In this document: positions 28,094 through 63,159 of the stretch, one piece after another | How the letters are laid out: every line of letters starts with the position of its first letter | Position numbering within the stretch: position 1 is the first letter of the stretch | Assembly (NCBI GenBank): GCA_046563655.1 | Contig: CM102288.1 | Span: forward strand, 372,001 to 436,000 | Direction: 5' to 3' | Source of the DNA: Yuukianura sp. NJ FZ-2021 | Lineage: Eukaryota | DNA length: 64,000 bases | Notes under the pieces: generated by a model | Seen by the model: only the letters and a program-made list of their open reading frames with translations | What the model was told of the DNA's origin: nothing | Databases searched by the model: none | Made by a program: the position numbers and the translations under genes

Positions 28094-30929
28094 ATGAATT
28101 GGGTCAAAGCGCTGACCATCTTCTGGTTTTTGGGCAGTAAGTTTTTGAGTCGTTATCTTATTATCCTGACTTTTTCCAAAAGTCCTTCTGTAGAAAGTTA
28201 GAAGGTGTGATGGTGTTTAAAAAAAACAATATTTTGGAATTTTTTAAATTTCCATAAAAAAGGAAAATGCACTGTAGTGAATTTGTTAGCCTAATCCTGA
28301 CTTTCTCCAAAAGTCCTTCTGTAGAAAGTTAGAAGGTGTGATGGTGTTTAAAAAAAACAATATTTTGGAATTTTTTAAATTTCCATAAAAAAGGAAAATG
28401 CACTGTAGTGAATTTGTTAGCCTAATCCTGACTTTTTCCAAAAGTCCTTCTGTAGAAAGTTAGAAGGTGTGATGATGTTTTCAAAAAGCAATATTTTGGA
28501 ATTTTTTAAATTTCCATAAAAAAGGAAAATGCACTTTAGTGAATTTGTTAGCCTAATCCTGACTTTCTTCAAAAGTCCTACTGTAGAAAGTTAGAAGGTG
28601 TGATGGGGTTTTCAAAAAACAATATTTTGGAATTTTCCAACTTTCTATAAAAAAGGAAAATGCACTTTAGTGAATTTGTTAGCCTAATCCTGACTTTTTC
28701 CAAAAGTCCTTCTGTAGAAAGTTAGAAGGTGTGATGATGTTTTCAAAAAGCAATATTTTGGAATTTTTTAAATTTCCATAAAAAAGGAAAATGCACTTTA
28801 GTGAATTTGTTAGCCTAATCCTGACTTTTTCCAAAAGTCCTTCTGTAGAAAGTTAGAAGGTGTGATGATGTTTTCAAAAAGCAATATTTTGGAATTTTTT
28901 AAATTTCCATAAAAAAGGAAAATGCACTTTAGTGAATTTGTTAGCCTAATCCTGACTTTTTCCAAAAGTCCTTCTGTAGAAAGTTAGAAGGTGTGATGAT
29001 GTTTTCAAAAAGCAATATTTTGGAATTTTTTAAATTTCCATAAAAAAGGAAAATGCACTGTGGTGAATTTGTTAGCCTAATCCTGACTTTTTCCAAAAGT
29101 CCTTCTGTAGAAAGTTAGAAGGTGTGATGATGTTTTCAAAAAGCAATATTTTGGAATTTTTTAAATTTCCATAAAAAAGGAAAATGCACTTTAGTGAATT
29201 TGTTAGCCTAATCCTGACTTTTTCCAAAAGTCCTTCTGTAGAAAGTTAGAAGGTGTGATGATGTTTTCAAAAAGCAATATTTTGGAATTTTTTAAATTTC
29301 CATAAAAAAGGAAAATGCACTGTGGTGAATTTGTTAGCCTAATCCTGACTTTTTCCAAAAGTCCTTCTGTAGAAAGTTAGAAGGTGTGATGATGTTTTCA
29401 AAAAGCAATATTTTGGAATTTTTTAAATTTCCATAAAAAAGGAAAATGCAATGTAGTGAATTTGTTAGCCTAATCCAGACTTTTTCCAAAAGTCCTTCTG
29501 TAGAAAGTTAGAAGGTGTGATGATGTTTTCAAAAAACAATATTTTGGGATTTTTAAATTTCTCATAAATTAGGAAAATACACTTCAGTGAATTTTTTTTT
29601 AACCCTACTGAAGTTTAAGCAAGGTTATGGAATTTGAGAATAATTGTGACAATGTTTTGTTTTTTTTTTTCAAGACGTGGAATGCAAATTGCATAAAAAC
29701 GGAAGTGAAGCTGTCTTGGCGGGTCCATTTTTGGGTTTGACGAATGAGTTGATTGATGAAACGTTGAAGTGGGTCAAAGTCAAGTACTTGTGTGGTTACG
29801 ATCCACTGGAGCTTCCACCCGTGACCCAGGATGACCTCAACGTCACCTACTCACTCACCATTTCTGATATTCGTATTGATGGACTGTCACATCTACTCCG
29901 ACTGGAAGATGTCGAAGTAGAGGTCAGCATTTCACAAAATATTTTTCACTCCGACCATCTTACGTAAACTTTTGAAAAAATTTCAAAATCTAAAATTGTG
30001 ACAACTTTTTTTGCTTTAGAAGTACGAGCGACACGATTCAAATGGAACGGAATTGGTATCGAGCTACGCCTTGTCGTCGACTTTAGGAATTCGAAACGTT
30101 GCACTCAAATTTCGAATTGAAATGCTCAAAATTTTGAGTTTGACGGTAGTAGATTTTGTTGCAAATGGATCCATTCCAGAAATTGACATTCCCATGCTAG
30201 CCCTGGTTGCTCCTGCGCAGAGACGCATTCAATTTGACAGCATCGGGATAGAAAATTTAGATAAATTAGAAATTGACATCAAAAGTGGCAATTTTCTGAC
30301 GTCCATTGGTGGATCCATTCCCTCTGTCCAAAACTACATCAAAAAACAAATCAAAGTAAGATTGCAACACTTGATACTTTGTTAAACTTTATTTTTTTTA
30401 AAATTACATTTTCAAAAATCAGGACTCTATTAAGGACAATCTGGAATCCAGGATCGGAGATGCCAAAACTTATTTGAACAACGCCGTGAATTCAGTTACT
30501 TCTTTTGAGACATCCAATCGCTGCGCCGCTGACAAATTTAACAGCACTTCAATTCGTCTCCCATCGACATCAGCGTCTGTTCCGCTATTTTTTCTAGCAC
30601 TAGGAAACGAACTTCCCGGGTCACCGAAAAGATTTAGTCTGGTTGTGAAGTACAGGTCAAAGGTCATCGGTTCCATTCCACTCCCGCCGGGTCAAGACCA
30701 AGATACTTCAGAAACCAAGGGCCTCTTTGGACACTTTGACCCTGACAGGAACGAATTTGTGCTAAATCTAAACGGGGTGTCTTATAAACACGTTAGTGAG
30801 AATAAGGTTGACCCCAGTTGGCCTTTGACCTCCAACAGGGAACGTGACATCTTTTGCCTCTATGCTCAAGATGACTCTACTTCTGACAAGATCAAGCTCA
30901 ATCCCTACATTACCAGAGTTGCTGAGTAA
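28094..30929 (+). CDS. Secreted group-7-allergen / TULIP (LBP-BPI/takeout-like) lipid-binding protein with C-terminal extension
   Basis: Exons 28094-28136, 29675-29922, 30020-30355, 30423-30929, all phase-consistent. Signal-like N-terminus; YDPLELP..ISDIRIDGLSHLLRLEDV resembles the Der p 7-family DP.K.P..NI.V.GL....R.GD pattern (family call by eye). Confidence 0.65.
28163..29593. repeat. 131-bp tandem repeat (satellite-like), ~11 copies, intron 1 of the TULIP-like gene
   Basis: Unit starts (atcctgactt..) at 28163, 28294, 28425, 28556, 28687, 28818, 28949, 29080, 29211, 29342, 29473; near-identical with no spacers. Confidence 0.98.
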
Positions 30930-35100: not shown

Positions 35101-36145
35101 TTAATTCCGGGGTCTAATTAAAATCAAAATAATTCAGTTAAGTTTCCAATTAAGTATTAGGTTCAACGGACATGCGTAACCTACGTATTCAATATTAGTG
35201 CCATTCTCAAAGTTAAGCACAGCATATTGGCAGAGAAGTTCCACAAAAGACTGTTGAAACGGAACTGTTTTGGGTTCTTGAGTTGCTTGTGACATATTTG
35301 GAAGTGACCCATCGAGTGTCACCCATGAAGTCAGATGAGCTGCGGCCTCTAATGCTAATGAAATGATTTCATCAACAGAATTGTTCTCAGAATGTGTCAC
35401 TCCACTTTGCTTGTGCTTAATCCCAGCATCCAGAATTGCTGAAAAAAAAAAACGATTGTGATTAGATGAAAAGACAAGACAGCATCTTGGGACAATTTTT
35501 AGTATGTTTCAACTCACCCTCCAAAGCACTGAACACGGTTGGGACTTGTTTTATAAGATTAATTTTCAGTTCTGTCTTTCGTTGGGTGCTCAGTTCGTCA
35601 GAAACGGAAGTCCATTCTTCTGAAATCGTCTTGATAAACCAAAGTCCAACTATCACCATCTCCTGAGACCTGGTTGCCTGGAAACCAAATGAAAGATTAG
35701 ATGAAGTACGGACGAAAGAAAAACGTTTGCATACCTCCAGAACATTAGAGAAGAAATCCGGTTGCTGTTGTGGCCAAGACAGCTTCCCAATGTCTGACAA
35801 TAATTTGATAACCTTATTTCTGATGAATGGAGGACACTTGACTGGAGAGGACAGTGATGATTTTTGTACGAGAAACGTCTGGAGAGCAGTCATAATTTCG
35901 GATTGATCTTGGTGTGACATCGAATACCACCGAGTTTTGATCGTATTCTCAAGTATAGATAGGCAGTACATGATAACAAATTCGCTGCCATCTGTTCGCA
36001 AACCGTAGAGAGCTTGTTTCCAAGATTCACGGTTTTTGAGAAACTGTGCCAAAACAATTTCTATCTCTCGTTTTCTATCGTTCGATGTCTGCGGAGCATA
36101 AAATTCTGATAGGCAACCTTCCAAACGTCGCTGGTTCTCCTCCAT
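32156..36145 (-). CDS. XPO6: Exportin-6 (importin-beta family nuclear actin exporter), multi-exon
   Basis: N-term MEENQRRLEGCLSEFYAPQTSNDRKREIEIVL..SWKQALYGL..YCLSILENTI..FIRNKVIKLLSDIGKLSWP; C-term FLQQDLEVFRYNL..LVQKSHDLYREE..ASVDY..DLPTF..FVDDLRHF. Both match exportin-6; intervening ORFs are bounded by GT-AG introns. Confidence 0.9.
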
Positions 36146-36199
36146 TTTTATGCTTCGACGTCCGTAGTGAGACGGGTATCGCAGAACTACCAAAAAGAC

Positions 36200-36620
36200 A
36201 TCAATGAACCATAAATTAGTTGTGCTAATTTAAACATAAAGTGAATTTTTTATTTCTTACCAATCAACGCAGAGTGAGAATGTGAATAATCCAAGATCAA
36301 ATACGATTTTCACACGAAGTATGTTGGTTGATTCAGATCCATTTTCCCCGAGAAACCCGAAATCTAATTGATTAATACGGAAACGATGGATATGATTGAA
36401 TTTGAAATTGAACAATCCATCAAATGAATGGATTCTCCTTAGGTAAATACTCAGCCAAAATCGGCAATATTCGCTCAAATACATTTACTACGCCTGCGTG
36501 TAGATTAAAAAGTGCCGATTTTTGGCACGCCTCAGCTGATTCGGACAAAAGTTTTGTTTTCATTTGATGTGCTAACAAAATTTTAAATTTGGAAGATTTG
36601 TTGAAGTTCTAATTTTTTTG
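36200..36620. promoter_or_regulatory. Bidirectional promoter / 5' leader region shared by XPO6 and NDUFA6
   Basis: Divergent start codons (36145 minus, 36629 plus) lie <0.5 kb apart. Confidence 0.6.
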
Positions 36621-43800: not shown

Positions 43801-46800
43801 CGAATCTGAGGATTTTTAGAAAAAAGGAAAAAAGTATTTTTAAAATTTATGTGACATTTCCTTCATGTCTTCCCATTTTGAACACTTTGGTATTAAACAG
43901 TTCCTGGGTGGTGGGTTCATCAATAATGTTAGCAGAGCAGATGGAACTTCTAGCACAGACTTGGCACTCGTCTCTGTTCAAACAACATTTTTTGAACAAA
44001 AAAGAGGCAGAGTGAGACAGTTGAAAGAAAAAGTAGCATGTCTAATTCTGTTTTTTGGAGGAAAAAAGAGGTGAATTGGGCAGGTGGAGGACGGCAGTGA
44101 TGAACGCGTTTTGAAATTATTTTAAAAATACAAATTATTTAAAATAGAAATTTTAAAAATTGTCTACAAAAAGTTAATCTACAAAATATGTTTTTAAATT
44201 TTTTGCAGAAATGCTTTCTCCAAGATTTCAATTTTCAGCAATCATTCAGATTTCAAAAATAATTTTTCATTTTTTCCCCTTACCCTCATTTCATCTTCAA
44301 TCTTGGAAGCACTGAGAAGTGGTCTGACTTTCTGCCACAATTTGAACCACGACCACGTTCGGAGTTTCAAGTAGCCTCTCAAGCTGCGCTGAATTACTTG
44401 GAGAGCAATTCTGTACGAAATAATATATTATAATATATTTTATTTAATATATAATTAAAAAGTTGACGAACCGTTGATCTTGGAGACGCTTGTACTCCTT
44501 GAGGGTCAAGTAGTTGCGAATATTGGCTTGGAGCCATGTGAAGATCTGAGTGAGACGCTCGTCACGAACTTCTTCAAGTTGACCCAAAACTCCGGCACGG
44601 AAGAACACCTAAGCAAAAGGTCAAAGGTCAACACACTCCCACATTCTTAAAAGAGGCACTCAATCCATGCAAATACAAGCATTGTCAAGCATCCTTGACA
44701 ATTTAAAAAAAAAACTTACTGAAAAAAAAAACACAGCAGAAACGCAAAATCATAAATAAAAAAAATATCAGAGAAAGTCAAGAGAGAAAGCTCCAAGACC
44801 AACTTTTTCTAAATTGAAAATCAAATTAATTTTTTTTTTCAAAATCTGAAATTTTTTAGTAAAAGCGAAAAAAACACACTAAGAAGAGCAATTGTATAAA
44901 ATTGCCTTTGTGTTTCCCAGTCTGTATTGGTCATGTTCGAGGTTGATTGTTTCCAAAATGATTTTGGCAACTTCCTTCTCATCAGCAACTCCTTTAGCTT
45001 CTTTAGAAGCCAAGATTTTGTACCTTCAAGGGACACAAGGGATCATCACACATGACAAAACAAAACAAATTTTCAAAATTGAAAATTTTGAATCAAAAAA
45101 TTTTGAATTCAACTATTTTTTGAATTCCTAAAAACAGCAATCAAGTGTCGCAAAACTTGCGACATAAGAACAACACATTTCCTCAGTGCTTGAATTTCTC
45201 AAGTTTTTGGTTCGGAAAGACAGGACAAGAAAAAATCGGGGTTAAACCCGTTTTTTTTTTCAACCAAGAAAAAATTACAGAAAAACTCCGATTTTTTTTT
45301 TTGAAAGGGAAACGTGCCTTGGTGTGACCCAATCGAAATTTGTCTGCTTCCAATTCAATGGCATCAAAGCAAACTTGAGCCATTTTCTTGTCCTCTGTCT
45401 CTGCCTTCATTTTCTCAGGTGCTAAAATTAGATACCTTCAACCAAACCAACAAAAATTGGAAATTTTCGAATTTTCAATTTTTTGAATTAAATTACGAAT
45501 TTTCAAATTTCATGGTAGGTATTTTAAGCACTTCTCCAAGAGCATTACAGTGCATTGAATTAACTGTTTCTTTTTGCTACGCCCTTCAGTCTGCTTCGTT
45601 TTAATTAAAATGGCAGTTAAGTTTAGGAATTAAAAGTGAAAATTAAAATTTAGTAAATGTAGTTTTTCCTTACCTGTGTTTGAAGTCAGTGTAGACCATT
45701 CGGTTGGGAAATCCTTTGCGACAAATACGAATTCCTTCAAGTACACCGTTGCAAGTGAGCTGGTGCATCACCAAGTGGGAATCAATCAAACCTTGCAACA
45801 CAAAATTAAAACTTCCAATTAGAACAATTTTTAAACTAAATTTTTCCACAAAAATTGGTTTTTAACACAAATTGAATTTTGAAAGTGTGACTTACCGGCT
45901 GTTTTCAATTCATTAGGAATGATACAACGGATGAAATGAGGTGAAGTAGCTTGGAGAGTTGTCATCAAGTTGTTCAATTGTTCCTAAAACAGGATCAAAA
46001 ATTAGCAACTTTTTACAGAAAACTCAAAAAAAAAAATGCATCCGAAACATCAAACACTGAAAACAGTTATTTCGTCAATACATTAGTGTGAGATCATACA
46101 AAAATTAAAACACTGCGTCTGCCGCATAGTGTTAAACAAAAGCTAAGTTAATTGAAGTTAGTTATTATTAAATTCTTCACCTTGATCGTCCAATGTGAAG
46201 CTCAAAATTATTTGCGAAAATCTCAACTAAAAAATGAGGTCTGAAGAATTTTGTCTCCTTTTGTCCAAGTATTTTGGATTTTCAGATTTTCAAAATCTCA
46301 AATTCTTTCAAAAAAGTTTACTTGAAAGTAACAAGACCAAGGCAATAACGTTGTGCCCGGTAGAATGAAAATTGGGATTTGTTCCCTTCAAAACGACTTG
46401 TATGAAATGAATATGTACAAAGGTCAAAGGTCACGGAAAAGCATTCCTTGATTTACAAATCCAATGAAACAACGTTTTTGGACACTTTTAGTTTTTTTTA
46501 AGTTGTACCCGGTAGGATGAAGAGACTGTGGCAAAGCCTGAGCCCTTCTTTGCTCGTCCACCTGAATCAATTGTTTGTGTGTTAATTAAAGTCAAAAACT
46601 TAATTAAACTTAAAAATTCAATTAACATTTAACCCAGCCCATGAATTTTTAACATCGTGGACATGAATGAAACTCAACTGAAATCTGAAATGTAATTACC
46701 GAGAAACTTTTGCTTTAGGCTATTGCAACATTCGTTAGGAGGCTGAGAAGCAAGGCATTACGAAAATTCTGTTTTAAAAACGCGTTGTACTTTTTCAAAA

Positions 46801-49800
46801 AAAATTACCCTGTAGAGGGCTGATACTGTTTGAAATGCTGAGCCTTTGGCACGTTTTCCACCTTTTTTCAAAACAAACTCAATTAATTAAAAAAAAAAAT
46901 TCAAAAACCTCCACTAAAAATTTGAAAAATGGAGTGCCTCGCTGCCTGAAACAAAAAGTGAAGGTAAGGCCCAAGTTGACGAAACTTAGAAAAGGTAAAC
47001 TGCAAATCCGCGATTGCAGAATATGTGAATGACCCAGGTCAACAAGGTCATTGACCTCGTGACCTTTTGACCTCGACATACCTTTGCCACCACCGTCGTC
47101 CTTGCCACCGGACTGTCCAGGATGATCAATGAAGATTTCCTTGAGGAGTGCATTGTCGCCCTTCTTGAACTGGTCAACGACAGTGTCGTTGAGGGGGTCC
47201 TTGTTCTTTTCCAGCCAGTTCGAGATGTTGTACGGAACCTAAACACAGCAAAGGTCAGAGGTCAAAGGTCACAACATTTAAAAAAAACTTTAAAACTTAC
47301 AGTTCCAGCGTAGTGAACACAAGCAAAGTGAGCCTCAGCACATCCTGGTTTGGCGGGTTTCGGTTTCTGGAAGTTCGGTGACTTGCCCAAGTGATTGTTC
47401 TTCAACTTTTCAGCGAAAGTCTGGTCAGTGGCTTTGGGAAACATAGATTCTTCTTCAAGGATGGAGAAGATACCCATGGGCTGTGTTTCAAAATTTTGAA
47501 AAAATGAAAAATTTCATTTGAACCAATATATTGGTTCAAATATTGCAATATTATGAAAAAACTGACCTTCTCCATAAGTTCAATACAAGCTTGCAAGTCC
47601 ATGCCGAAATCCATGAAGACCCAGTCAATACCTTCTCGCTTGTACTCTTCTTGCTCCAGAACGAACATGTGATGGTTGAAAAATTGTTGAAGTTTTTCAT
47701 TAGTAAAGTTGATACACAGTTGTTCAAAACCGTTGAACTGCAAATCAAAAATAACGTTTCAAAAATCCAGTTGTGAGAAGAAAAACAAGTTTTTTTTTGA
47801 AAACTTACATCAAAAATTTCAAATCCAGCAATATCCAGGACCCCAATAAAGTGTTGTCGTTTTTGCTTTGTGTCAAGAGTTTCGTTGGCCTTCTTGACGA
47901 GCCACTTGAACAGTCGGTCGAACATGCCCTTGCCCAAGGCACCAACGGAGTATGCGCACTACACAACCAGAATCGCATTATTTAAAAAAAATGTCCCATT
48001 TTTAACATTTTTGAAAATTTTGAAAATGTCGTAAAGTTTACCTGGTCCTTGTTTCGTCCTTGCGTCACAAATTCGTTACCGACTTTGATTCTCGGTTTGA
48101 GCAAATTTTTGAATAGATCCTCTGGGACAACTCCCAAAAGCTTTCCAACGCGCTCACCTTCCTAAAAACAAAACACATTTTTTAAAATTTGGAAAAATGT
48201 AAAATATGAACTTTTTTTTTTGAAATTCGTAAATTTTGGAAAACTTACCGCGGTACCGTCAGCTTCTGCCTGTTCTTCTCTTCCCCTTTGCTTGAACTTC
48301 ATACCACCCATGTGCATAACCGCAGCCGTGATCTTGTAGATGTCCGCCTTCTCTTGCTTTGAAAATCCCAAAATGTCAAAGGCTTCCTGATTTTTTTAGA
48401 AAAACAAAGTTAAAATTTAAATTTAATTACTAGGAGTAGGCAACAATTGAGAGCAATTCAAGCCAGAAAATCAAACACGACTTGAAAACGATAACTTGGG
48501 TTAGCTCAAATAATCAAAACAGCGTTTTTGTTGAAAATTGTAACTGGCGCTGTGTTTAAGCAACGAAAATTGTGCTGCGCAGTGTTTTCATCAAGCGTCC
48601 AAACTTACATCAGTGACCACAAACTCTTCCCCGTCATCAACTCCAGGAATGGTCGTTTTTCCTTGGGACACGAAGTAGTAGTCATTGATGTTGTTGCTCA
48701 GCAAGCACATTTCTGTGTAATTCCAAATTAATTCAACACAATTCAAAACACACACTCTTAATTAATTCAACTGAAACAGATTAGAATCACGCGATTACTA
48801 TCGTTCTAAAAATCTAAAAATCAAGACTAAACACACTGACGACCGATTTTCAAAATCTGCAATGGTCGTGCTTGTCAATTCAAACAAAACCAAAATGGGA
48901 GAAATCGAACTCGGGAAAGCGAAACCACTTTTTCGTTTCTGGGTTACTCACATCCGTAGCAACAAATTCTTCACCATCATCGACTCCAGGGATGGACGTT
49001 TTTCCTTGGGACACGTAGTAGTAGTCTGTGATGTTGTTACTCAACAGACACATCTCTGAGGTTGGCACAAACAAACGTTGAACAAACGTATTTCAAAACT
49101 TTATAAACGTTTTACCCTAACTGGAACCTAGTTTAACTATGACTGGCTACAAGTATCACAGTTTAGTATAAGTGCACTTGAGTTCTTACCCTTGACACCC
49201 TTGACGGCTCCTGACATGATCTGGTAGAAGATGTGGTAAGAACGTTCTAGCGGCTGTTGAGAAATGACACGAGCCTTCTCCAGCAGATCTACGTATTACA
49301 AAACGTTCAAAGTACGATCAAAAATGTTACGTTTGTGAATACCAACATAAAATTTTAGCAAAGGTTTCTTACAAGTCTCAATGTCAGCTCCAGCCAATTT
49401 TCCAGTCATACCAAAATGGATACGGATGAATTTACCCTATACGAGAGGAAACATCGATCAGCCACATACAAGCTGTTTGACATGACGGATCAAATCAATC
49501 AAATGCTTGAATCAAAACTTACAAAACGGGACGAGTTGTCGTTACGTGTTGTTTTGGCGTTACCGAAGGCTTCCAGAACAGGCTACAAAGAACAAAATAA
49601 CGGTAAATTTAGTAACGTTCTTTCATCAGTAAAAACGATCGGCCAACGCAAGACTTTTATGGAATGTATCAAATCATGTAAACTTACGTTGGTCTGGACG
49701 ACTTGATCTTCCAAGGAACCCTACAAAAAGCATTGGTATCGTTTTAGTTACAGAAATTAATCAGTAATTGACTTAAAAGTTAAAAAAATCACCTTTCCGG

Positions 49801-52800
49801 ACTCATCTTTCTTTCCACTGGCGCCGACCGAAGCGAAGTACGCAATTACCTTCTTCGTGTTTTCAGTTTTCCCAGCTCCAGATTCACCTCTGTCATAGAG
49901 TAAACAATTTTAATTAAACTTTGTCCAATCAACTTCATCAAACAGATTGTTAATTAATTTAATTAGCGGCAAACTAAATTTTACGACTCAATTCTCCATT
50001 TTCTAAAATCCTTTGTTTATTTTACAAGTCTCACTTTTTGAAAAGGGCGGGAAATTGCACTGCTAAATTCAAATTTCGCGCCCTGAATTCAAATTTTTCC
50101 TTCCTGCGTTTTGATTGGCTGACCGTTGGGCTTGCGCTTTACATTTGTTGTTACTGTCATTTTTTTCTTCCTTTGTTCTTGTTTTCATTTTTTTTTATTG
50201 TGCTTTGTTTTCATTTGGACAGTTGGGATTTTCAAGTTTGTATTCGTTTCAGTGCTGCTTGTTTTACGTTAACAGGGGTCATAATTAGTGTTAAAATTCA
50301 AAAACTGGTAAGTTTATGTGTTACTTACGTGATCAACATGGACTGGTTCTCGTGATCTGAAAGATTTCAAACACAGTTACGTCAATCATCAGTCATCAAC
50401 TCATCAACTAAAGGGCTGTTGCAGGAATGGATCACCTTGTCTAACGTAGTAAGTAAGGTGTGACGAAGACGATTGATGATTCGAGAGCTACGCTAACGCA
50501 TTGATATTGATTGACATTTGTGTTTTGTCGTCGTGTCATAATGGACACGCCTCTCTTTGTCCTGGCTTCCTTAACTCCTTCCTTTCGTCTAACAATTCTA
50601 CCCTGTCATGAAAGCTAACGATTCTTAGTCATTGACAGCAGGAATTCGGAGGATATATCGTTGTATGAAACGGGCAGAGTGAAAACGTATTAAAAACGTT
50701 TTGTAAATCAGTGTCAAATGTTTTACTAAAAGAATATCGTTTTCTAGGCTGCTGTAGCTGAAATACCCGGGATTCATGAAGGATTCTTCTGTTATGAAAT
50801 GAGAATATGCGGATTTTGGCATGGAATCAGTGCATTAGAGTTGCAAACTCCATTTTCCCTTGAGATTAGAAGTAACGATGAGCCAGAGACTGGATCCCTT
50901 CAGTTTCCGTATGTCTCTACTGCTCAATAACTGAATATCTGCGTATCTTGGAGGGATAGACTTCATTCAACAAGGAAGGAATGCTAATACGGATTTTCTT
51001 TTTTTCTGGATTGAAATCCGAATTCGGAGATTGAAATTTACTTTGCTCTTTAATACCCGGTCGTTTCCGTAATGCTCGTGGTGCTAACTTACGCTCTCAG
51101 TGCGTCTAGCTGGGTGCTGTGAAGCAGTTGAAGAAGAATGGAGATGGCAAAGTGCCAAAAGCGAAATCAAAAGGAGTGAGCACCACGATTTATTTTGGGA
51201 AACAGCATAGCCATTTATGGACACGTGCCCTATCTTCTCTACTTTCTTTTTTAAAATCCTCATGTTCAAATGGACTAATCTGTAAACTAAACTTCCAAAA
51301 GTTCTGCACGACCAACTTAAGTTAAAGGGAACCGTGGGAGGCTAAAAGTACAAACAAAACAAACGAACGGAAAATGAAATGCGAACTCAAATTAATTCAA
51401 TCGTTTTTCTAAATTAGGATTTATGTTTTGTCATGTTCAAAACCTAGGTTTTAAAAATTCTGGGAATTTTAGACTCTGGTTGCGCATTGCTTGATTCCTG
51501 ATGTTTCTGGTTTATGTTTTTGCCAAGAACTTTAACAAATTTTGACTAAATTCCTCTACTGTTTAGAATTTAATCACAATATTCACCTGAAATTTATTTT
51601 GAAATTGTATACTTTTTTGTTTTTCAGATTTCAAAAAAGGTGCCATTTGAAAAAATACTGCGTCCTTCTATGTTCTGTTCACCGTGTTCCAGCTCCGCTC
51701 CTTCTGTCAAACCGCTTACATGAAGTATTGAATGCAAGTTGAACTTGGGCTACAACTACGGGTAACTGAACTTCAAAATTTATCTAGAAATGTATCTTTG
51801 CATTTGAAATTATCTCAACTTATCCTGCTGTTATCCCCAAGGTGTGAAAATTCGGGGGAAATTCTTGTTAGCTCTTCCGCCTGTGACATGTCTGATATGA
51901 GGCGAGATGATTAATGTTTTAAGTGTGAAATGTGTGGGTGTGTCACTGTCATCACTGTTGGCTGTAGATAGTGTTATAAAGTGTTAATTTCTTAATCAAA
52001 TTGTGTCACTTACTCGTAAGCATGTCAGAGTAGGCTCCATCAGAAATTGCAAAAAGATGCGGCGGAACTTCATTTCGCCTGCGTCCCTTGTAGATTTGGA
52101 TCACACGGTTCGTGTAGATGGGGTAACGCTTGTACGGATTGATAGCGACGCAGAACAAGCCAGAGTAGGTCTACGAATTCAATTTTCAAAATCATATTAA
52201 CTTTTTTCTCAAAATTTTGAGCTAAAACAATTTTGGACCAGTTTTTTTCAAGTTTGCATAATGATTTTGTAAAAACTTTTTTCATGTTTTTTTTTCTGAG
52301 GTAGATGATTAATCGGATCTCAAAATCGGATCGATTACTCTAAAGTCTGAAACAACTTTTTCCTGTTGCTGGATTTTAAAAACCGGGTAACGAGAAAATT
52401 CGGGAGAATTTGAGCTGTGACGAAAATAGTTGGCTAGGGATTCTGTTCCTCCAAGGCTATACATAGACACTCATTTATTTCTCATAGTCTTTTTTAAAAA
52501 AAGTTCCTCCGTCTTTGTTCTAAAAAGTCTAGAGTCAACATTTTCAAAATGAGAAACAGGAATAGAAATTTCTGTTACACTCGGTTTCATAGAATGTTGA
52601 AATTATTAAACTTTTGAGAGCCTTTTACTAAAAAGTTTTAAATAGACAAACTCATTTTGCAAACTTTCAAAAACTATAAAGACAAAAGAGGTCAAAGAGT
52701 ACAGTACTCAATTAATTGGAAATTAAGAGCATTATTGCATAATAACTCTGGAAAAACTTTGATGCAGTTTCAACATTTCTGTTCCAAAATTATCCAGAGG

Positions 52801-54268
52801 TGAAATTTTAAAACAAATATTTGAAAGGAAGTGAAAGATTCTTTGAACTTTTTTGTCCTCTCATCATAGATCCTTTTTTTTTCATAGTATTTCTATAATA
52901 CAAAAATGTTTAGGATTTCAAAATCTGGGTTTTGAAATTGACCCATCAAGGTTAGGGTTAACTTTTTGAAGTAAATAACCTAAAGTAATCGAACTTCGAC
53001 AACGAAGACGACATTGCTATGTACACAGTACACATCAAGTGATTTTTCCAAAAACCAATTCAAAATACTACAAAAACCGGTGTCTCTTTAGTTGACACTT
53101 TGATGATTTGTGCTTATAAGGACCGTTCTGTAGGCCAAAGCATTACAAAAGCCGTGCAAAAAGTTTCAGAAAAAGTTGAAAATGTTAGATTTATTAGTTA
53201 GTTGTGTTGGTTTTGATCATGTTGAGAAGGTAATTTGGAAAACAAAATGAAAATGCTGAGGAATTTTTAAATTTTAAATTAAATTATTATAATGTTAATG
53301 TTAGTTTTTGTGCTTAGGGTGTCACGGTTTTGTATTAGCCCAACGTTAGTGTTTGAAAAACGGGAAATGCAAATAGGAAAACAAAAAAAAAGTTTTTGAA
53401 AAGTGTGAAATTTAAAAAATAATAGAATGCTTAGCTGCGTTGCGGCTCCTGCGGTGTTAACTTACGTAGATTAGTTTTGTGTAATAACGTTGTTTCAAGT
53501 TATGAAGTACGGAAGCATCATTGAGGTAGGTGAGGTTGCTCATATCCTCACATTTTTCGTACTTCGGTGGATTCACTTGTGATACCAGTTCTTTCTTATA
53601 CGTCTTCTCCTGTTGAAGGTCAAAAGGTCAAAAATAGAAACAAGAGGTCAACTCACGTAGATTAGCCTAGCGTAGTAACGCTGTTTGAGATTGTGCAACA
53701 CCGAGGCGTCGCTCAAGTACGTCATGTCAGCCATGTCCTCAATTTTCTCAAATTTAGGCGGATTCACTTGGGCTAGCAAATCCTTCTTTACGGTCTTCTC
53801 CTACATTCCACCACGTTCAAAGTTTCAAAAATCCATTTCAAAAATATCAAAAAATCAAAATTTTTAAAATGAACCCGGAACTGGAACTTCAAAATCAATT
53901 AAAAATTGAGCAAAAATCCAAAGAGAAAAAAGTAAACGGCGGATAAATATCGCACTAATTCATATAAGTATAGATAATGCACCATGAAATCTCAAATTAT
54001 GAAACTTTTTAATTTTTTTTTTGAAATTTTTTTTTTTTAGAAATTTTTGAAATTTTCGTACCTCTCCGCCGGGAATTCCGACGGTGACGAGATCTCCCTT
54101 CGTTCCTCGAATTTCTCCGAGGACGAATCCTTCCTTGTCGTCCGGAACCCAGCAAGCTTTCTTGGCATCGTACGGCTTCGTCTGGTCAATCCGCTTCTGT
54201 TCCAACGACACGAACAGGTATTCCGTCGGATCCGGATCCGGACCGACCGACTTCTTCTCTATGACCAT
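37818..54268 (-). CDS. Mhc: Muscle myosin II heavy chain, complete gene with mutually exclusive exon clusters
   Basis: ATG 54268 ([19 protein letters not shown]). Constitutive exons 54268-54062, 52170-52014, 50356-50329, 49889-49793 (GESGAGKT), 49720-49688, 49582-49523 (NDNSSRF), 49436-49373, 49288-49190, 48386-48249, 48161-48042, 47958-47809 (DIAGFE), 47737-47567, 47480-47301, 47238-47082, 45983-45896, 45791-45674, 44608-44472, 44410-44284, 43292-43083, 42020-41748, 41677-41375, 41225-40393, 40312-39949, 39877-39197, 39111-39024, 38963-38611, 38546-38394, 37928-37818. Phases checked. Confidence 0.98.
38181..38248 (-). CDS. Mhc: Mhc cassette tailpiece exon (alternative C-terminus [12 protein letters not shown])
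   Basis: tctttgtag| acceptor, in-frame TAG at 38212-38210, |gtaagc donor. Positionally analogous to Drosophila exon 18. Confidence 0.8.
42700..42764. repeat. Near-perfect palindrome/hairpin in an Mhc rod intron
   Basis: aagctttttaggggtgaaagtc-c-gactttcacccctaaaaagctt (22-bp perfect arms), extended by cctgcaaa..tttgcagg. Confidence 0.9.
43293..43364 (-). CDS. Candidate unique N-terminus of a headless myosin-rod isoform
   Basis: Intronic ATG at 43364 gives [24 protein letters not shown], contiguous and in frame with the rod exon starting KLEEKAVK. Confidence 0.6.
44906..45023 (-). CDS. Mhc: Mhc converter exon variant b (mutually exclusive)
   Basis: 118 nt, [39 protein letters not shown]; ttgaag acceptor and GC donor (aag|gcaatt). 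Confidence 0.93.
45318..45435 (-). CDS. Mhc: Mhc converter exon variant a (mutually exclusive)
   Basis: 118 nt, [39 protein letters not shown]; ttgaag acceptor and GC donor (aag|gcacgt). Confidence 0.93.
46357..46385 (-). CDS. Mhc: Candidate third, shortened Mhc loop-2 exon ([10 protein letters not shown])
   Basis: 29 nt, correct phase 1->0, ttgaag acceptor, GC donor. Its 3' end plus donor (tcattctaccgg|gcacaac) is a 17/19 copy of variant b (tcatcctaccgg|gtacaac). Confidence 0.5.
46509..46561 (-). CDS. Mhc: Mhc loop-2 exon variant b
   Basis: 53 nt, [18 protein letters not shown]; ttcag| acceptor and |gtacaa donor. Confidence 0.93.
46809..46861 (-). CDS. Mhc: Mhc loop-2 exon variant a
   Basis: 53 nt, [18 protein letters not shown]; aaaag| acceptor and |gtaatt donor. 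Confidence 0.93.
48609..48712 (-). CDS. Mhc: Mhc exon-7-type variant b
   Basis: 104 nt, [35 protein letters not shown]. Confidence 0.95.
48952..49055 (-). CDS. Mhc: Mhc exon-7-type variant a
   Basis: 104 nt, [35 protein letters not shown]. Confidence 0.95.
53466..53609 (-). CDS. Mhc: Mhc exon-3-type variant b
   Basis: 144 nt, [48 protein letters not shown]. Confidence 0.95.
53657..53800 (-). CDS. Mhc: Mhc exon-3-type variant a
   Basis: 144 nt, [48 protein letters not shown]. Confidence 0.95.
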
Positions 54269-55130: not shown

Positions 55131-55769
55131 CTTCAAAGTTTTTAGAATTTTTCCATTTGAGCTCCTAGTTCTAAAAACCGAAGTTGGACGAACCTGCCGA
55201 ACAGTGTAGGAGAGTTTAAAATTGGTTAGTGGAATCTCGTCATTCTTCTAAAACCCAAAGGTTTGAGCCTGTATACAATTTCTACGGAGACTTCGGGCCA
55301 TTTTTGGGACAATCGGCACTCTGCCAAGAAACTAAAAGTATTCTAGCCTCCTAGAATTCTTAGACCTTAGAACTTTAGAACCGCAGGAAGCAGAGTTAGC
55401 AGCAAGGTTTTAAAACCAGAAAGTGACTTGATATATTCCCTTCTCGTTAGATAATGTTCGCTACTAGAAAAGAAATAATTTAGGACGCACGTCTTCTACA
55501 TTTCCAACGAAAACGAAAAAAAAGAGAAGTTTTTAGTTTTTACACCTCCCAGCTCCCTCGAGTCGCGTCGCCTTTCAGGAATTCGGTTCTCTATTTTCGG
55601 TCTCAGGAGATTCGGTCTCTGGATCTCCTTGAGCTTTTGGCTTTTCTTTTATTATACTTTTCATAAAGTAGTTTTAGACTTTACAAACTTCCGTTCATTC
55701 TCTCTTTTTGTTGATGCAGTTTATGAAACTGAAAAACTGTTTTTTCTGTTTTTTCAGCACATTTTGAAA

Positions 55770-58700
55770 ATGGACGTTTCGTCAACTCCGTCTGACGGAT
55801 CGTCGTCGTCTTTTCCGCTCAAAATTGAGCTGGACCAAGATCAATCATTTTCACTTCCAGGAACGCAAGAAACACTTTGGTCAATGCCATGCTCTGCAGT
55901 TAGCTCAGTTTTGATGAGAGTTCTGGATACACAAGAAATATTATCGCAAGTGGATTGTTTCAGGAAACTGACAGAGTGGATGCGCATGTCTGCAGAACCG
56001 AGCGCAGACGCTGAAGCGTCCCAGCGATCCGAAGTTTCCGGAACGGAGCATGTTAGGACCGAAATCGTCTCGAATTTGAAAGAAATTGTTCCGGAAATGA
56101 CACAAATTTTTAATGAAACAGAAAGCGACAATGAGGATTCACTACTCACCGTTTTAGGTAAAAAAAATTTTGCGAAAAACTTTTTTTTTGAAGAATTTTT
56201 GACAAATCGCTGTTTTTTGTAATGAGGCGCTGATTTGAACGTTTGGTTGCTCAGATTTTTGTCACGTTCTGTATGGAGACGTGACCGCCGTGACGAAGAC
56301 GCTTTACTTGTACCATGGAGCTGGAACGGCTTTCTTTGCTTCCTTTCGTACTTTGCTGGATCGTGGTCGTTTGTGTGTTAAGGTACTTTTGTCTCCAAAG
56401 GAAAACTAAATTCAATTAGTTAATTGAATTGCAATTAAACAACTATTTAATGGCTTTTGAATTGTGTTTTTAGGAACAGACGCTCAAAGTTATACTCCAA
56501 ATGGTTCAAACGTACCACAAAAATGGAAAGTTCGAGTCAACCGAATCTCCACCAATTCTTGAGTTTATTCTGAGTGCTGACTTGGACAGTTATTTCATCA
56601 ACTGTCTCCACTTGAACCAAAAACCAATGTTCAAGTATAAAAAAACTCGATTTTCATAAAATTCATAAAATTTCGAAAATTTACTAGCAATAAGTTTGTT
56701 CCTATTTTGCAGTGATGTGATTGAGATCTTCCAAATCCTGCTGGGCATTCCTAGTTTTCCAAAAGACAGAATCCAGACTACGCTGGACCGAAGTCTGCGT
56801 GTAGCTCATCTCATAATTACTGAAGATGGAGTCGACAGAGACAAATTCTTTCATTTTGTGTGGAAGGCTTTTGAAACATGGTAAAAGTACTAAAAGAAGG
56901 CAACTTCAGTACTTTTTACTACAATATTTGATGTTTGCACTTAATTTGATGACATTTTTTGATGTTTTCCCAGGGATCCTGTCCTGCCTCTGCCTTTTGA
57001 AGTTCGGATAATGGCGCTCTTTGAATCTCTGCTCTTCAGAACTTCGACTGAACCGGAAGATCAAATATGTGTCCACTTTGCACAATTTGTGAACATCGTG
57101 ATTAAAAGTGATGACATTCTGAGGCGAGTGAGAGAACAAGGGTCGCTGGACTTGTTCATCAAGCTACTCAAAATTCAAAAGATACGAGAAGCCTTTGGTA
57201 AAATTCAATTTCTGAAACGTAAAAGCTGATGAAGTTTGTGAATTGGGATTACGAAATATCTTTTTCTTTCATTTTAGCTTCAATCCTCCTCGAGAGCAAC
57301 GAATTCGTAAAATTTTTGGACGAAAGTTTAATATTTTCGGACGCTTTGACTGAGGAAGTGCCTTTAGAAGAATTCGAAATTGCAATTTGCCTAATGGAAA
57401 TCGCCAGGATTGGAAATTACACCGGAAATGAAATGATAGTAAGGAAAGACTTTTACAAAGTTCTGCTTTTGGAAAATATTAAGGTCTCGTTAGATAATTT
57501 CAAAAAAAGTGTAGAATAGCAAACTCGGTTTGTAACTTTACAGGTAAGCAAATGGCAAAATTTTAGGATTGTTAGGTTAGGCTATTACCTAAGAATGTGA
57601 ATTTTTTTTTTTCGAATTTTGAGAAATCTTAATTTAATTTTTTATTTATGAATTGGAGGGTGAAAATGAAAATGGAGTTGACGATTTTAGTTTTTATGTT
57701 GATCATGATTTGAGAATTGTGTTTATAATCCAAAATTGTACGAAAGCAGTGTTAAGCAGGGGATAAACAAGTGAAAAGCTGTTTGAAATCCTGTTGTTTC
57801 TCATTAGAAGAGGATAGGATGGTTTGTTTAATTTCCCTAATGGGGATTGGGTTCCAGTTAGGTTAGATTTTGTTCTGTTTACATTAGGTAACATGAGAAA
57901 GTGAGTTAAGCATATGCACAGTTCGACACACACAGTTAGCCTTCCTTCCTCAACAGTTGTAATAACCAAATGTAAAATTTATGAGGTGAGGAGAAAGGAG
58001 AGTGAAAGCAGAGATTCCGTTCAACCGTGCTCCTTTTTCTTAACTACTCCCGTGGTTTGTTTACTCAAGAACAAAAGTTGGATTTTATGATGATGATTCA
58101 GTGCTTGGAAGTCTTAATTTAAATTCTAACTTTCTCCCGGAGAAAGTTGAGGAAGTCCATTATGAACCTATCAATAATTCACGGCAGGGAACAGGAACTC
58201 TGGACCTCCTCAGAGTCTTTCGGTTTCCAGTTCTTACAACTTTCTTTAAGAATCTTTAATCTTGTCGTAGTTTTAAAATAAACTTGGAAAACAAAAGTTT
58301 CAGTTTCAGCCTGGTTTTTGAAACTTTTCAAAAGAATTTTTTTGGTTTTTAAAGAAAACTTTGTTTTAAGAAATGCAGTTCCGCGGAGACTGTAAAGTTT
58401 CTAAACGGTGTGGTTTAGCCCTGTTTTAAATTTAAAGGGAAATTGTTACAGAAAACTGTAGAGATGAGGGAGGTACTTGTGAGAGCAAATGTAAATCACC
58501 TGAGGACGTAATGTTGTGGTGTTTCGAATTTGTAAAATTTCAGAAAAAGGAAATTTTCGAAATTTTAAAAAAGTTTTCATATTTAATTTTGGTTTGTATT
58601 TCAGTGTACAGAAAGGATCCAGTTGGACTTGAGTCAACTTGCAGTTTTTTTGATGGATTTACCTTTGACCTGCTTGAAACACACGCTACCGCCTGTACTT

Positions 58701-61700: not shown

Positions 61701-63159
61701 TTTCAAGTTGTAATTTTCTCAGTAGAGACGTTAGATTTGTAATTTGTAAATGCTAAAGTAAATTGAAGTCTTCCGTGCAGGAGTTTTTTAGAAAGCGTTT
61801 TAGAAATCAGAATTGTTTGAGAATTGAGGAAACCAGGTGAGAAATTAGTGTTTCGTTTCATTAACTTTGACACGCAGCAGTTAATTAGAGGGAGAAAGCA
61901 CGTAGCGTTCGTTTCGGCTGTTAAACTGTCTTTGTTTTGAAGTTAATGAAACAAAGCTAGGTTTAATTAACCAAACCTTGTTGTTTAACAGAAGGAAGAC
62001 CAAAGGAAGAAGGTCAAAGGTCAGCTAAGACAGATTACTCTAAAAGTCCAACTATAATAGGATAAATTCCTTCTAGGAGACTTACATGTGAACTTGAGGT
62101 TTACTTTGACAAGACCGGAACTGTTGTGCTCCTCTTCAGAGATTCAATTGTGTAAAGGAAGAAAGCTTTTGGTCTTTGGGTTCTCATTGGAAGGAAACAT
62201 ACAAAATGCATTAGAAACTCAATTCCCGTAAGACTTCAATGGAAGCTGGATACGGAAGACATTTTAAGGTTAGGTTGAAACCTAATGGGTTCTGCAGTAT
62301 ACTGTGCCAAATTAGGTTTTTGAGCCCCCGGAGGCTCTACACTGATTTTTAAAACAGGAAAATTAGGTTGGAGGAAGGAAAAGAAGAGAAAGCTTTTCAT
62401 TTTCTCTTACTTTAAAAAATTGTTTAAAAGAAAATAAGAAGGAAGGAAACCATTTGCCATTGCTAATGATTGTGTTCCGGGAACGCCGTGCTTCTTAGCC
62501 TTAACTCAACCTAGCATTTGTTAGGGTATGTGAATGTTAGGTTTTGGTTTGAGTGGGATTGACGCTTTAAAAGGAACTTGACTTTTAATGAAGAATGAGA
62601 AAGGCTTGGAGGCATTGAATGACGCAGAGGGGAAAAACAATGGAAATTCAATTTCAAATTTTGGAGAAAGTGGGCTGCTGGAGTCAGTTAATGAAAAATT
62701 CAGCGACGTGAGTTATGCATGCTGCTGCTTTGGGCTCTGCTTTGAGTTAACATGAATTGAAAGAGATTGACACTGGAGAAAGTTAGAGTTATGCTCAAGT
62801 TAGGGTGAGGCTATTTCTGAACATTTGGTCAACAACAATTTCGTCAAAACAAAACGTTTCGTAGAGTTGAATAGGTTATGTTTACATGATGGGTTTGGTT
62901 TGTGTTATGTTTTGGTAAAATTGAGTAGTAGGATGGGACGTGTGGTCTAATTTCAATGTTTTTGTGTGTACAGAAGTCGTGTAACGACGAAGGAGGGCTG
63001 GAAGGTCTGGATCGTCTCCAGGGAAAAGCGAAGACCAATTTTGTGAAATTCGTTTGTCAGTGGCTCAAAGACGCTGAATCGCTTCCTGTAGGCAGCTCCA
63101 GTGCAAATGCAGAGAAAAGAACCCAGTTGGCTACTTATATCAACAACTTACATTTTTAA
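55770..63159 (+). CDS. Uncharacterised predominantly helical (ARM/HEAT-like?) protein, ~630 aa
   Basis: Phase-consistent open exons 55770-56157, 56255-56382, 56474-56634, 56713-56880, 56974-57197, 57278-57483, 58605-58751, 58848-58943, 60343-60591, 62974-63159. Leu/Phe-rich amphipathic pattern; no family recognised. Confidence 0.7.
57526..57549 (+). other. Candidate recursive splice site AG|GTAAGC
   Basis: cggtttgtaactttacag|gtaagc lies 60 nt after the weak donor aag|gtctcg (57483/57484). Confidence 0.6.

What the first reader, a model, noticed from the sequence alone, without database searches (positions are those of the whole stretch)
46350..46861. Loop-2 (actin-binding) exon cluster with a cryptic, shortened third member
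Seen: two 53-nt variants plus a 29-nt in-phase exon [10 protein letters not shown] whose 3' end is a duplicate of variant b. Knowledge: loop-2 length and positive charge set actin affinity and ATPase rate; Drosophila Mhc has no loop-2 cluster. Inference: variant c removes 8 residues and most Lys/Arg, giving a kinetically distinct motor. It may instead be a decaying duplicate, since it also erodes the conserved TVS helix start.
Basis: partly seen in the sequence, partly recalled or inferred. Interest (0 to 1): 0.75.

Follow-up and report, generated by a model that had tools for sequence, protein, structure and literature searches.

The report
Myosin loop-2 exons plus dead copy
Two alternative exons for the actin-binding loop of an arthropod muscle myosin gene are real and of a long-known kind, while the proposed short third exon looks more like a leftover partial copy than a working exon.

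Summary
The window holds an arthropod muscle myosin heavy chain gene on the minus strand (54271-38412; 31 exons). Exons a (46861-46809) and b (46561-46509) are two 53-nt, same-phase, homologous alternatives for the end of loop 2. They are the published 'cluster-8' of mutually exclusive exons, described as the oldest cluster in bilaterian Mhc genes (PMC3912159). Both types occur in Daphnia, beetles and moths and in five relatives' genomic contigs.

Candidate c (46385-46357) is there as described: AG acceptor, 29 nt, in phase, open, with 18 of 20 bases matching b's 3' end. The donor is GC, not GT. It scores below all 34 real donors of the gene. Two better GT donors 7 and 35 nt downstream would shift the frame. 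Candidate c is not an exon in the closest relative's contig. No c-type isoform appears in 106 proteins or 37 read-through loci. It replaces a TVS motif kept in 105 of 106 proteins.

Verdict: known exon pair plus a probable pseudo-exon. A working third exon is not excluded (about 0.12).

The parts
47082..47238 (-). Constitutive exon before the cluster (…[15 protein letters not shown]). It ends in phase 1; donor AAG|GTATGT.
46809..46861 (-). Cluster-8 exon a, 53 nt, [18 protein letters not shown], donor GTAATT (FQTVSAL type)
   Evidence: the same type is seen in Daphnia, Tribolium, Lepidoptera and Folsomia proteins and in genomic loci
46509..46561 (-). Cluster-8 exon b, 53 nt, [18 protein letters not shown], donor GTACAA (the weakest real donor of the gene, 2.44 bits)
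   Evidence: an identical peptide is in the relative's transcript L007/P0241
46357..46385 (-). Candidate c, 29 nt, in phase, [10 protein letters not shown], acceptor TTTTGAAG|G, donor G|GCACAA. Probable pseudo-exon.
46350..46369 (-). The only part of c that resembles b: 20 bases, 18 identical to 46502-46521 (13 exonic, 7 intronic)
   Evidence: (D4)
46418..46455 (-). Intronic block conserved with the relative's contig L009 (TAAATCAAGG…TGACCTTTGACCTTTG), 53-91 nt after b's donor and 33-70 nt before c's acceptor. Branch-point-like TGAC repeats.
   Evidence: (score 32; 0 of 300 shuffles reach it)
46322..46356 (-). Stretch after c holding two GT donors, AAC|GTTATT after 46350 and CAA|GTAAAC after 46322. 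Both score about 3.1 bits against 0.97 for c's GC donor, and both would shift the frame.
45896..45983 (-). Constitutive exon after the cluster ([30 protein letters not shown])

Best explanation
The locus is the loop-2 cluster ('cluster-8') of mutually exclusive exons of an arthropod muscle myosin heavy chain gene. It has the usual two working members, a and b. Each is 53 nt, enters in phase 1 and leaves in phase 0. It follows by arithmetic (inference) that taking both or neither shifts the frame, so only one-exon mRNAs are productive. The two differ in the order of the basic residues and in the first turn of the helix after loop 2 (FQTVSAL against FATVSSS). This gives two actin-interface versions of the motor. 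Candidate c is most likely not a third working member. It is a pseudo-exon: a 20-base copy of b's last 13 exon bases and first 7 intron bases, lying 152 nt downstream, which happens to sit 16 bases after an in-phase AG. Its GC donor is very weak, and stronger frame-shifting GT donors lie just beyond it. If its acceptor is ever used, most products should therefore be out of frame and lost. Shown: the anatomy, the homology, the splice-site scores, and the lack of conservation and of c-type isoforms elsewhere. Inferred: that c is not spliced in this animal. No RNA of it could be examined.
For: A spliced protein-to-DNA alignment gives 31 exons and 30 introns; b is chosen and the flanking phases fit. 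Exon a has the same length, phase and AG/GT borders. Both types occur in named species: Daphnia carinata P0065 and P0063, Tribolium madens P0112 and P0089. Both exons lie in tandem in 5 genomic contigs of relatives, L002, L009, L031, L037 and L049. [quoted passage not shown] It is the middle one of five exons between clusters 7 and 10, as here. For c: likeness to b is confined to 20 bases. The BLOSUM62 score of c against b is 0.14 of b's self-score, against 0.62 for a with b. Donor CGGGCACAAC scores 0.97 bits, below all 34 real donors (lowest 2.44); 15% of 758 intronic GT/GC decoys score as well. GT donors after 46350 and 46322 score 3.16 and 3.08, and both shift the frame. In the closest genomic relative, L009 (exons 82.5-93% identical), the aligned place has TGATG instead of TGAAG, CGG|AC instead of CGG|GC, and a TGA in phase after the nearest AG. 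The local alignment of the c stretch is not significant: 75 of 1000 shuffles reach it. No blastn match to c was found in any of the 80 loci. No third in-phase exon ending in [YFH][RK] was found in 18 genomic loci, where all cluster-8 exons end at GT. The c 29-mer has 0 exact matches in metagenome contigs. The span DHPG…EQLxxLM is 36-43 residues in 104 of 106 parseable proteins, and c would give 32. None of the 106, and none of the 37 loci that read through, is c-like. TVS or TVC is kept in 105 of 106; the exception is a gene model lacking six residues, and a second model of the same species (Nymphon striatum, P0044) has them.
Against: Candidate c is in phase, open, and the best-scoring of the 12 in-phase open AG..GY candidates in these introns. 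Its acceptor (5.74 bits) beats 21 of 34 real acceptors, and only 6.5% of 464 decoy AGs do as well. Its TTGAAG|G form is the same as at both converter-cluster exons. A TGACCTTTGACC branch-point-like motif lies 37-48 nt upstream, as it does before the acceptors of exons 47238 and 44608. That block is the only intronic stretch significantly conserved with L009. GC donors are in real use in this gene: both converter exons, AAG|GCACGT and AAG|GCAATT. In relatives, 14 of 21 genomic converter exon ends are GC, or 12 of 19 if the duplicate pair L018/L019 counts once. Exons of 28 and 33 nt exist in this gene, so size is no bar. The 20-base patch is still 90% like b while its flanks are unalignable, which could mean constraint. 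The transcripts I saw are from other species, and assembled contigs drop rare isoforms.
Confidence: 0.6

Rival explanations
1. Candidate c is a genuine third mutually exclusive exon, spliced AG…GC like the converter exons of this gene. It makes a myosin whose loop 2 is 8 residues shorter and lacks the RAKK basic patch. That motor would have weaker actin affinity and different kinetics in some muscle or stage.
For: It is in phase and open, with a good acceptor. The acceptor is TTGAAG|G and the donor GC, as at the two converter exons. A branch-point-like motif and a conserved block lie upstream. Microexons exist in the gene. It is the best of the 12 in-phase open candidates.
Against: The donor lacks the consensus bases that the GC donors in use have at +5 and +6 (GCACGT, GCAATT, GCATGT, GCTAGT against GCACAA). 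It scores below all 34 real donors. Competing frame-shifting GT donors lie beside it. It is not an exon in L009. No third member was found in 18 genomic loci. No c-type isoform was found in 106 proteins or 37 loci. It replaces F-x-T-V-S, kept in 105 of 106 proteins. Its similarity to b is 0.14 of the self-score.
Confidence: 0.12
2. The c region is a non-coding splicing element: a conserved branch site with a decoy 3' splice site downstream of b. It would take part in the choice between a and b, or give unproductive, frame-shifted transcripts that lower output. The b-like patch would be kept for that role, not for its codons.
For: The only intronic block conserved between the window and L009 lies here, at the same distance from b's donor (offset 53-91 against 61-97). 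In L009 it is followed by a long pyrimidine tract and CAG|G, with a stop in phase right after it. In the window the block can pair with the start of the first intron, 47075-47036 (-30.9 kcal/mol; 30 shuffles mean -22.6, sd 2.2, best -27.2).
Against: The pairing partner is not conserved: in L009 the best duplex is within the shuffle range (-33.1; shuffles mean -27.1, best -37.0). TGACCTTTGACC-like motifs are common in the window (14 matches against 0.29 expected), so sense and antisense copies may pair by chance. The b and c patches have no better-than-shuffle partner. Only one relative could be compared. No RNA data.
Confidence: 0.2

Closest known systems
Cluster-8 (loop-2) mutually exclusive exons of bilaterian muscle Mhc genes (Kollmar and Hatje 2014, PMC3912159; passages and section 11 read)
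   Same: Same place in the gene: the middle of five exons between the relay and converter clusters. Same coded part: the end of loop 2 and the start of the next helix. Two homologous variants of equal length and phase.
   Different: Here a b-like 20-base fragment with an in-phase AG lies downstream of b. In the passages I read, cluster-8 is described with two exons wherever a number is given. The paper's Figure S2 could not be seen.
Drosophila melanogaster Mhc
   Same: Same gene family. The same logic of several exon clusters tuning one motor gene.
   Different: In Diptera the five exons are fused, so cluster-8 is missing. The window's gene keeps the unfused, older structure.
Converter-cluster (cluster-10) exons of the same gene and of relatives
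   Same: GC-AG introns and TTGAAG|G acceptors, as proposed for c.
   Different: Their GC donors have AAG before and mostly G and T at +5 and +6. They are conserved between the window and L009 (GCACGT, GCAATT in both) and code for recognisable converter sequence. Candidate c has none of these.
Solved insect myosin structures nearest in sequence: 7KOG (entry title: Myosin heavy chain isoform Mhc_X1), 5W1A and 8EXW (muscle Mhc)
   Same: The b-type loop-2 end, [21 protein letters not shown], aligns residue for residue with the relative's b-type transcript.
   Different: No solved or listed sequence has a c-like short form. The alignment says nothing about order or disorder.

Membership tests
Muscle Mhc cluster-8 exon (for a and b) | Lies between the exon ending …DHPGQSGG…GGK and the exon starting EQLNxLM, entering in phase 1 and leaving in phase 0 | tested here: met
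   Spliced alignment and reading of the sequence
Muscle Mhc cluster-8 exon (for a and b) | About 53 nt, coding G-basic-G-x-F-x-T-V-S-x-x-Y-R/K | tested here: met
   Both are 53 nt with the motif. Relatives' exons are mostly 53 nt; clearly bounded ones are 50-59 nt, and a few have ambiguous or longer acceptors.
Muscle Mhc cluster-8 exon (for a and b) | Both variants found in mature transcripts | tested here: inconclusive
   Both types occur in other species' transcripts and gene models (6 a-type and 20 b-type of the 37 read-through loci; Daphnia and Tribolium models).
Mutually exclusive exon by the criteria of Pillmann et al. 2011 (PMC3228551, passages) (for c) | Compatible splice-site pattern and the same reading frame | tested here: met
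   AG…GC, phase 1 to 0, no stop. GC-AG is among the patterns that paper allows.
Mutually exclusive exon by the criteria of Pillmann et al. 2011 (for c) | About the same length as its partners | tested here: inconclusive
Mutually exclusive exon by the criteria of Pillmann et al. 2011 (for c) | Sequence similarity of the coded peptides (a 15% minimal score is named in the paper) | tested here: not met
   c against b scores 13 of 90, or 0.14, by my own BLOSUM62 end-free alignment, which may differ from the paper's scoring. a against b is 0.62. c is not found by a tblastn self-search at E up to 5.
Working exon in general (for c) | Conserved as an exon in relatives | tested here: not met
   L009 lacks the AG and the GY at the aligned places and has a stop. 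No third member was found in 18 genomic loci. Only one close relative was available.
Working exon in general (for c) | Junction reads or a peptide | not testable with these tools
There are no proteome data.

The most novel reading that the evidence does not exclude
Candidate c is a lineage-specific third member of the ancient loop-2 cluster, spliced through a GC donor like the converter exons. It would give a myosin with an 8-residue shorter, charge-poor loop 2 and an altered helix start. This would be the first three-member cluster-8 among the cases described in the text I read, and a natural experiment on loop-2 length and charge.
Probability: 0.12. Interest if true: 0.6.

Novelty: new member of a known kind. 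Interest (0 to 1): 0.25.

Why it matters
As it stands, this is one more arthropod Mhc gene with the published loop-2 exon pair. The closest named relative in my searches is the springtail Folsomia candida, at 78% over 1732 aligned residues. It is useful for annotation: both a and b should be modelled, and c should not be added without RNA support. If c were spliced, it would be a rare natural loop-2 truncation that removes most of the basic patch, and it would bear on how loop-2 length and charge set actin affinity. The side observations may be of more general use for gene prediction in this group of animals. These are the conserved GC donors of the converter exons and a TGAC-repeat motif before acceptors.

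Tried and rejected
Steps that failed or gave nothing:
So the two RNA runs that hold 0.22 and 0.20 of the sampled words were never laid and say nothing here.
- Exact search for the c 29-mer in metagenome contigs found 0 matches.
- The window's own genome is not held.
- Earlier findings of the scan returned nothing by place, words or sequence.
- Three protein searches found no protein of this species (best 94% over part of the upstream exon; 86%). The only 100% match was over the 30-residue downstream exon, in the relative P0241. Isoform evidence therefore comes from other species only.
- Cluster members of Folsomia and of the L007 relative show only a- or b-type.
- RNA pairing of the b and c patches with the rest of the pre-mRNA is no better than shuffles.
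- The pairing of the conserved block in L009 is within the shuffle range.
- A complementarity of the block with the downstream acceptor in L009 (pair I1) is not kept in the window (read).
- Rfam gave only one sub-threshold chance match.
- A literature search for non-consensus donors in Drosophila Mhc exon 11 listed nothing relevant. My memory of such a report (Standiford and co-workers) is recall only.
They may show cluster-8 member counts that I could not check.
- No structure prediction of a c-isoform was run. The isoform exists only as a joined sequence, which I could not hand in.

Readings considered and dropped:
- A 53-nt version of c (46385-46333, GT donor) has a donor score of -0.33 and no likeness to a or b.
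- A 53-nt version ending at c's donor is not preceded by AG.
Full report
WHAT IS THERE

- Full-length crustacean and insect Mhc proteins map from 54268 to about 38385 (tblastn).
- A spliced protein-to-DNA alignment with the protein of a relative's transcript (L007) gives 31 exons and 30 introns between 54271 and 38412.
- The animal is not named. The closest named protein in my searches is Mhc of the springtail Folsomia candida, at 78% over 1732 aligned residues. An unnamed transcript (L007/P0241) reaches 83%.
- No protein of the species itself is in the protein collection.

THE OBSERVATION

The upstream exon 47238-47082 ends after one base of a codon. Three stretches follow, and the next exon is 45983-45896:
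- Exon a, 46861-46809: 53 nt, AG before, GTAATT after.
- Exon b, 46561-46509: 53 nt, AG before, GTACAA after.
- Candidate c, 46385-46357: 29 nt, AG before, open in the right phase, coding [10 protein letters not shown].

The b-like 3' end of c is real.
- It matches b at 18 of 20 bases.
- In the whole 64-kb window, b's 20-mer at up to three mismatches finds only b and c, and no shuffle gives a match.

- The bases after c are GC, not GT.
- Seven of the 20 shared bases are intronic.
- The remaining 16 bases of c and both flanks show no likeness to a or b. A protein-level self-search that recovers the a/b pair and three other exon pairs does not find c.

Being in phase and open is not rare. Of 170 AG..GY pairs in these three introns, 12 are in phase and open; c scores best among them.

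THE a/b PAIR IS A KNOWN, OLD CLUSTER

Kollmar and Hatje (PMC3912159; I read matching passages and the whole of section 11) number it cluster-8.
- They place its origin in the last common bilaterian Mhc gene.
- It is the middle of five exons between the relay and converter clusters of the ancient insect gene. The window has that same layout.
- It is missing in Diptera because the five exons are fused there.

My own data agree.
- Both types occur in Daphnia carinata and Tribolium madens gene models.
- Of the 37 loci that read straight through loop 2, 6 are a-type, 20 are b-type and 11 are other types.
- Both exons lie in tandem in five relatives' genomic contigs.
- Because each exon is 53 nt, taking both or neither shifts the frame. 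That is arithmetic. That such mRNAs are then degraded is inference.

FOR c AS A WORKING EXON
- Its acceptor scores 5.74 bits on a matrix built from the gene's own 34 sites. That is better than 21 of them and matched by only 6.5% of 464 intronic AGs.
- The form TTGAAG|G is also used by both converter-cluster exons.
- A GC donor is not disqualifying here. Both converter exons of this gene end AAG|GC. So do 14 of 21 converter exon ends in relatives' genomic contigs, or 12 of 19 if the duplicate pair L018/L019 counts once.
- Exons of 28 and 33 nt exist in the gene.
- A TGACCTTTGACC motif lies 37-48 nt before c's acceptor. The same motif sits just before the acceptors of exons 47238 and 44608, and it is strongly enriched in the window: 14 matches against 0.29 expected. 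It looks like a branch site plus pyrimidine tract.
- The block that holds this motif (46455-46418) is the only intronic stretch that aligns with the closest relative's contig L009 above all 300 shuffles.

AGAINST c
- The donor CGG|GCACAA scores 0.97 bits, below all 34 real donors. 15% of 758 intronic GT/GC sites do as well.
- It lacks the AAG before and the G and T at +5 and +6 that the GC donors in use mostly have.
- Two GT donors, 7 and 35 nt further on, score 3.16 and 3.08, and both would shift the frame.
- L009 has exons 82.5-93% identical to the window's. At the aligned place it has no AG, it has A at donor position +1, and it has a TGA in phase after the nearest upstream AG.
- Taken alone, the c stretch does not align with L009 better than chance: 75 of 1000 shuffles reach its score.
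- None of the 80 related loci matches c by blastn.
- None of the 18 genomic loci has a third in-phase exon of this kind, and every cluster-8 exon there ends at GT.
- The c 29-mer has no exact match in the metagenome collection.
- The span from DHPG to EQLxxLM is 36-43 residues in 104 of 106 parseable proteins, and 36-45 in the 37 read-through loci. Candidate c would give 32, and none is c-like.
- TVS or TVC is kept in 105 of 106 proteins; c replaces it.
- The similarity of c to b is 0.14 of b's self-score, against 0.62 for a with b.

RNA EVIDENCE

This would decide the matter, and I could not get it.
- Two metatranscriptome runs hold about a fifth of the sampled words of the gene.
- All transcript evidence above is therefore from other species. 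A lineage-specific or rare isoform would escape it.

READING AND ODDS
- Most likely (0.6): the cluster has its usual two members, and c is a pseudo-exon. It is a short copy of b's exon-intron border that happens to follow an in-phase AG. If it is ever spliced, it mostly gives frame-shifted products.
- Second (0.2): the region is a non-coding splicing element. The conserved branch-site block, a strong acceptor with an immediate stop in L009, and a possible pairing with the start of the first intron in the window point that way. But the pairing is not conserved, and the motif is common in the window.
- Third (0.12): c is a real third exon giving a short, charge-poor loop 2.

LIMITS
- Only one close genomic relative could be compared.
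- Figure S2 of PMC3912159, with all the gene structures, could not be seen. I cannot say that a three-member cluster-8 has never been drawn.
- The splice matrices rest on 34 sites.
- My memory of non-consensus donors in Drosophila Mhc exon 11 is recall. The search listed nothing on it.

Noticed in passing
window 45318-45435 and 44906-45023 (minus strand); L009 near 4145 and 4603: Both alternative converter-cluster exons use GC donors (AAG|GCACGT, AAG|GCAATT) and TTGAAG|G acceptors. The same two GC donors are in L009. Of 21 genomic converter exon ends in relatives' loci, 14 are GC (12 of 19 without the duplicate pair L018/L019). GC-AG looks like a conserved trait of this exon cluster.
   Followed up: partly
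window, 14 sites, e.g. 44619-44630, 46422-46433, 47253-47271, 30655-30666, 62012-62023: TGACCTTTGACC with up to one mismatch occurs 14 times against 0.29 expected, 10 of them on the minus strand. Several lie 10-45 nt before acceptor-like AGs, also outside the myosin gene. It is probably a branch-site and pyrimidine-tract motif of this genome. On the other strand it reads AGGTCAAAGGTCA, which I recall as the direct-repeat type of nuclear-receptor site.
   Followed up: partly
window 47029-47073 (minus strand), just after the donor of exon 47238-47082: There is a cluster of AGGTCA half-sites, including the perfect palindrome AGGTCAATGACCT (47057-47045). It can pair with the conserved block at 46418-46455 (-30.9 kcal/mol, beyond 30 shuffles). 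It is not present in L009's first intron.
   Followed up: partly
window 53657-53800 / 53466-53609; 48952-49055 / 48609-48712: There are two further two-member clusters of alternative exons in the motor domain, one at the N-terminal SH3-to-motor transition and one later in the motor domain (matching residues ~295-335 of relatives' Mhc proteins). Together with the loop-2 and converter clusters that makes four pairs. The relay exon 47567-47737 has no second copy in the window.
   Followed up: partly
window 50329-50356 and 49688-49720 (minus strand): The spliced alignment predicts microexons of 28 and 33 nt in the head region.
   Followed up: no
L040, L075 and L080 (related loci): In some relatives the exon after loop 2 (EQLNKLMTTL…[11 protein letters not shown]) is present in two tandem copies, which is a cluster the window's gene lacks. 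Daphnia carinata isoforms also differ in this exon.
   Followed up: no
window 35462-36229 (minus strand) and 55479-56222 (plus strand): Long open frames lie outside the myosin gene (255 and 247 residues in the stop-to-stop list). They were not examined.
   Followed up: no
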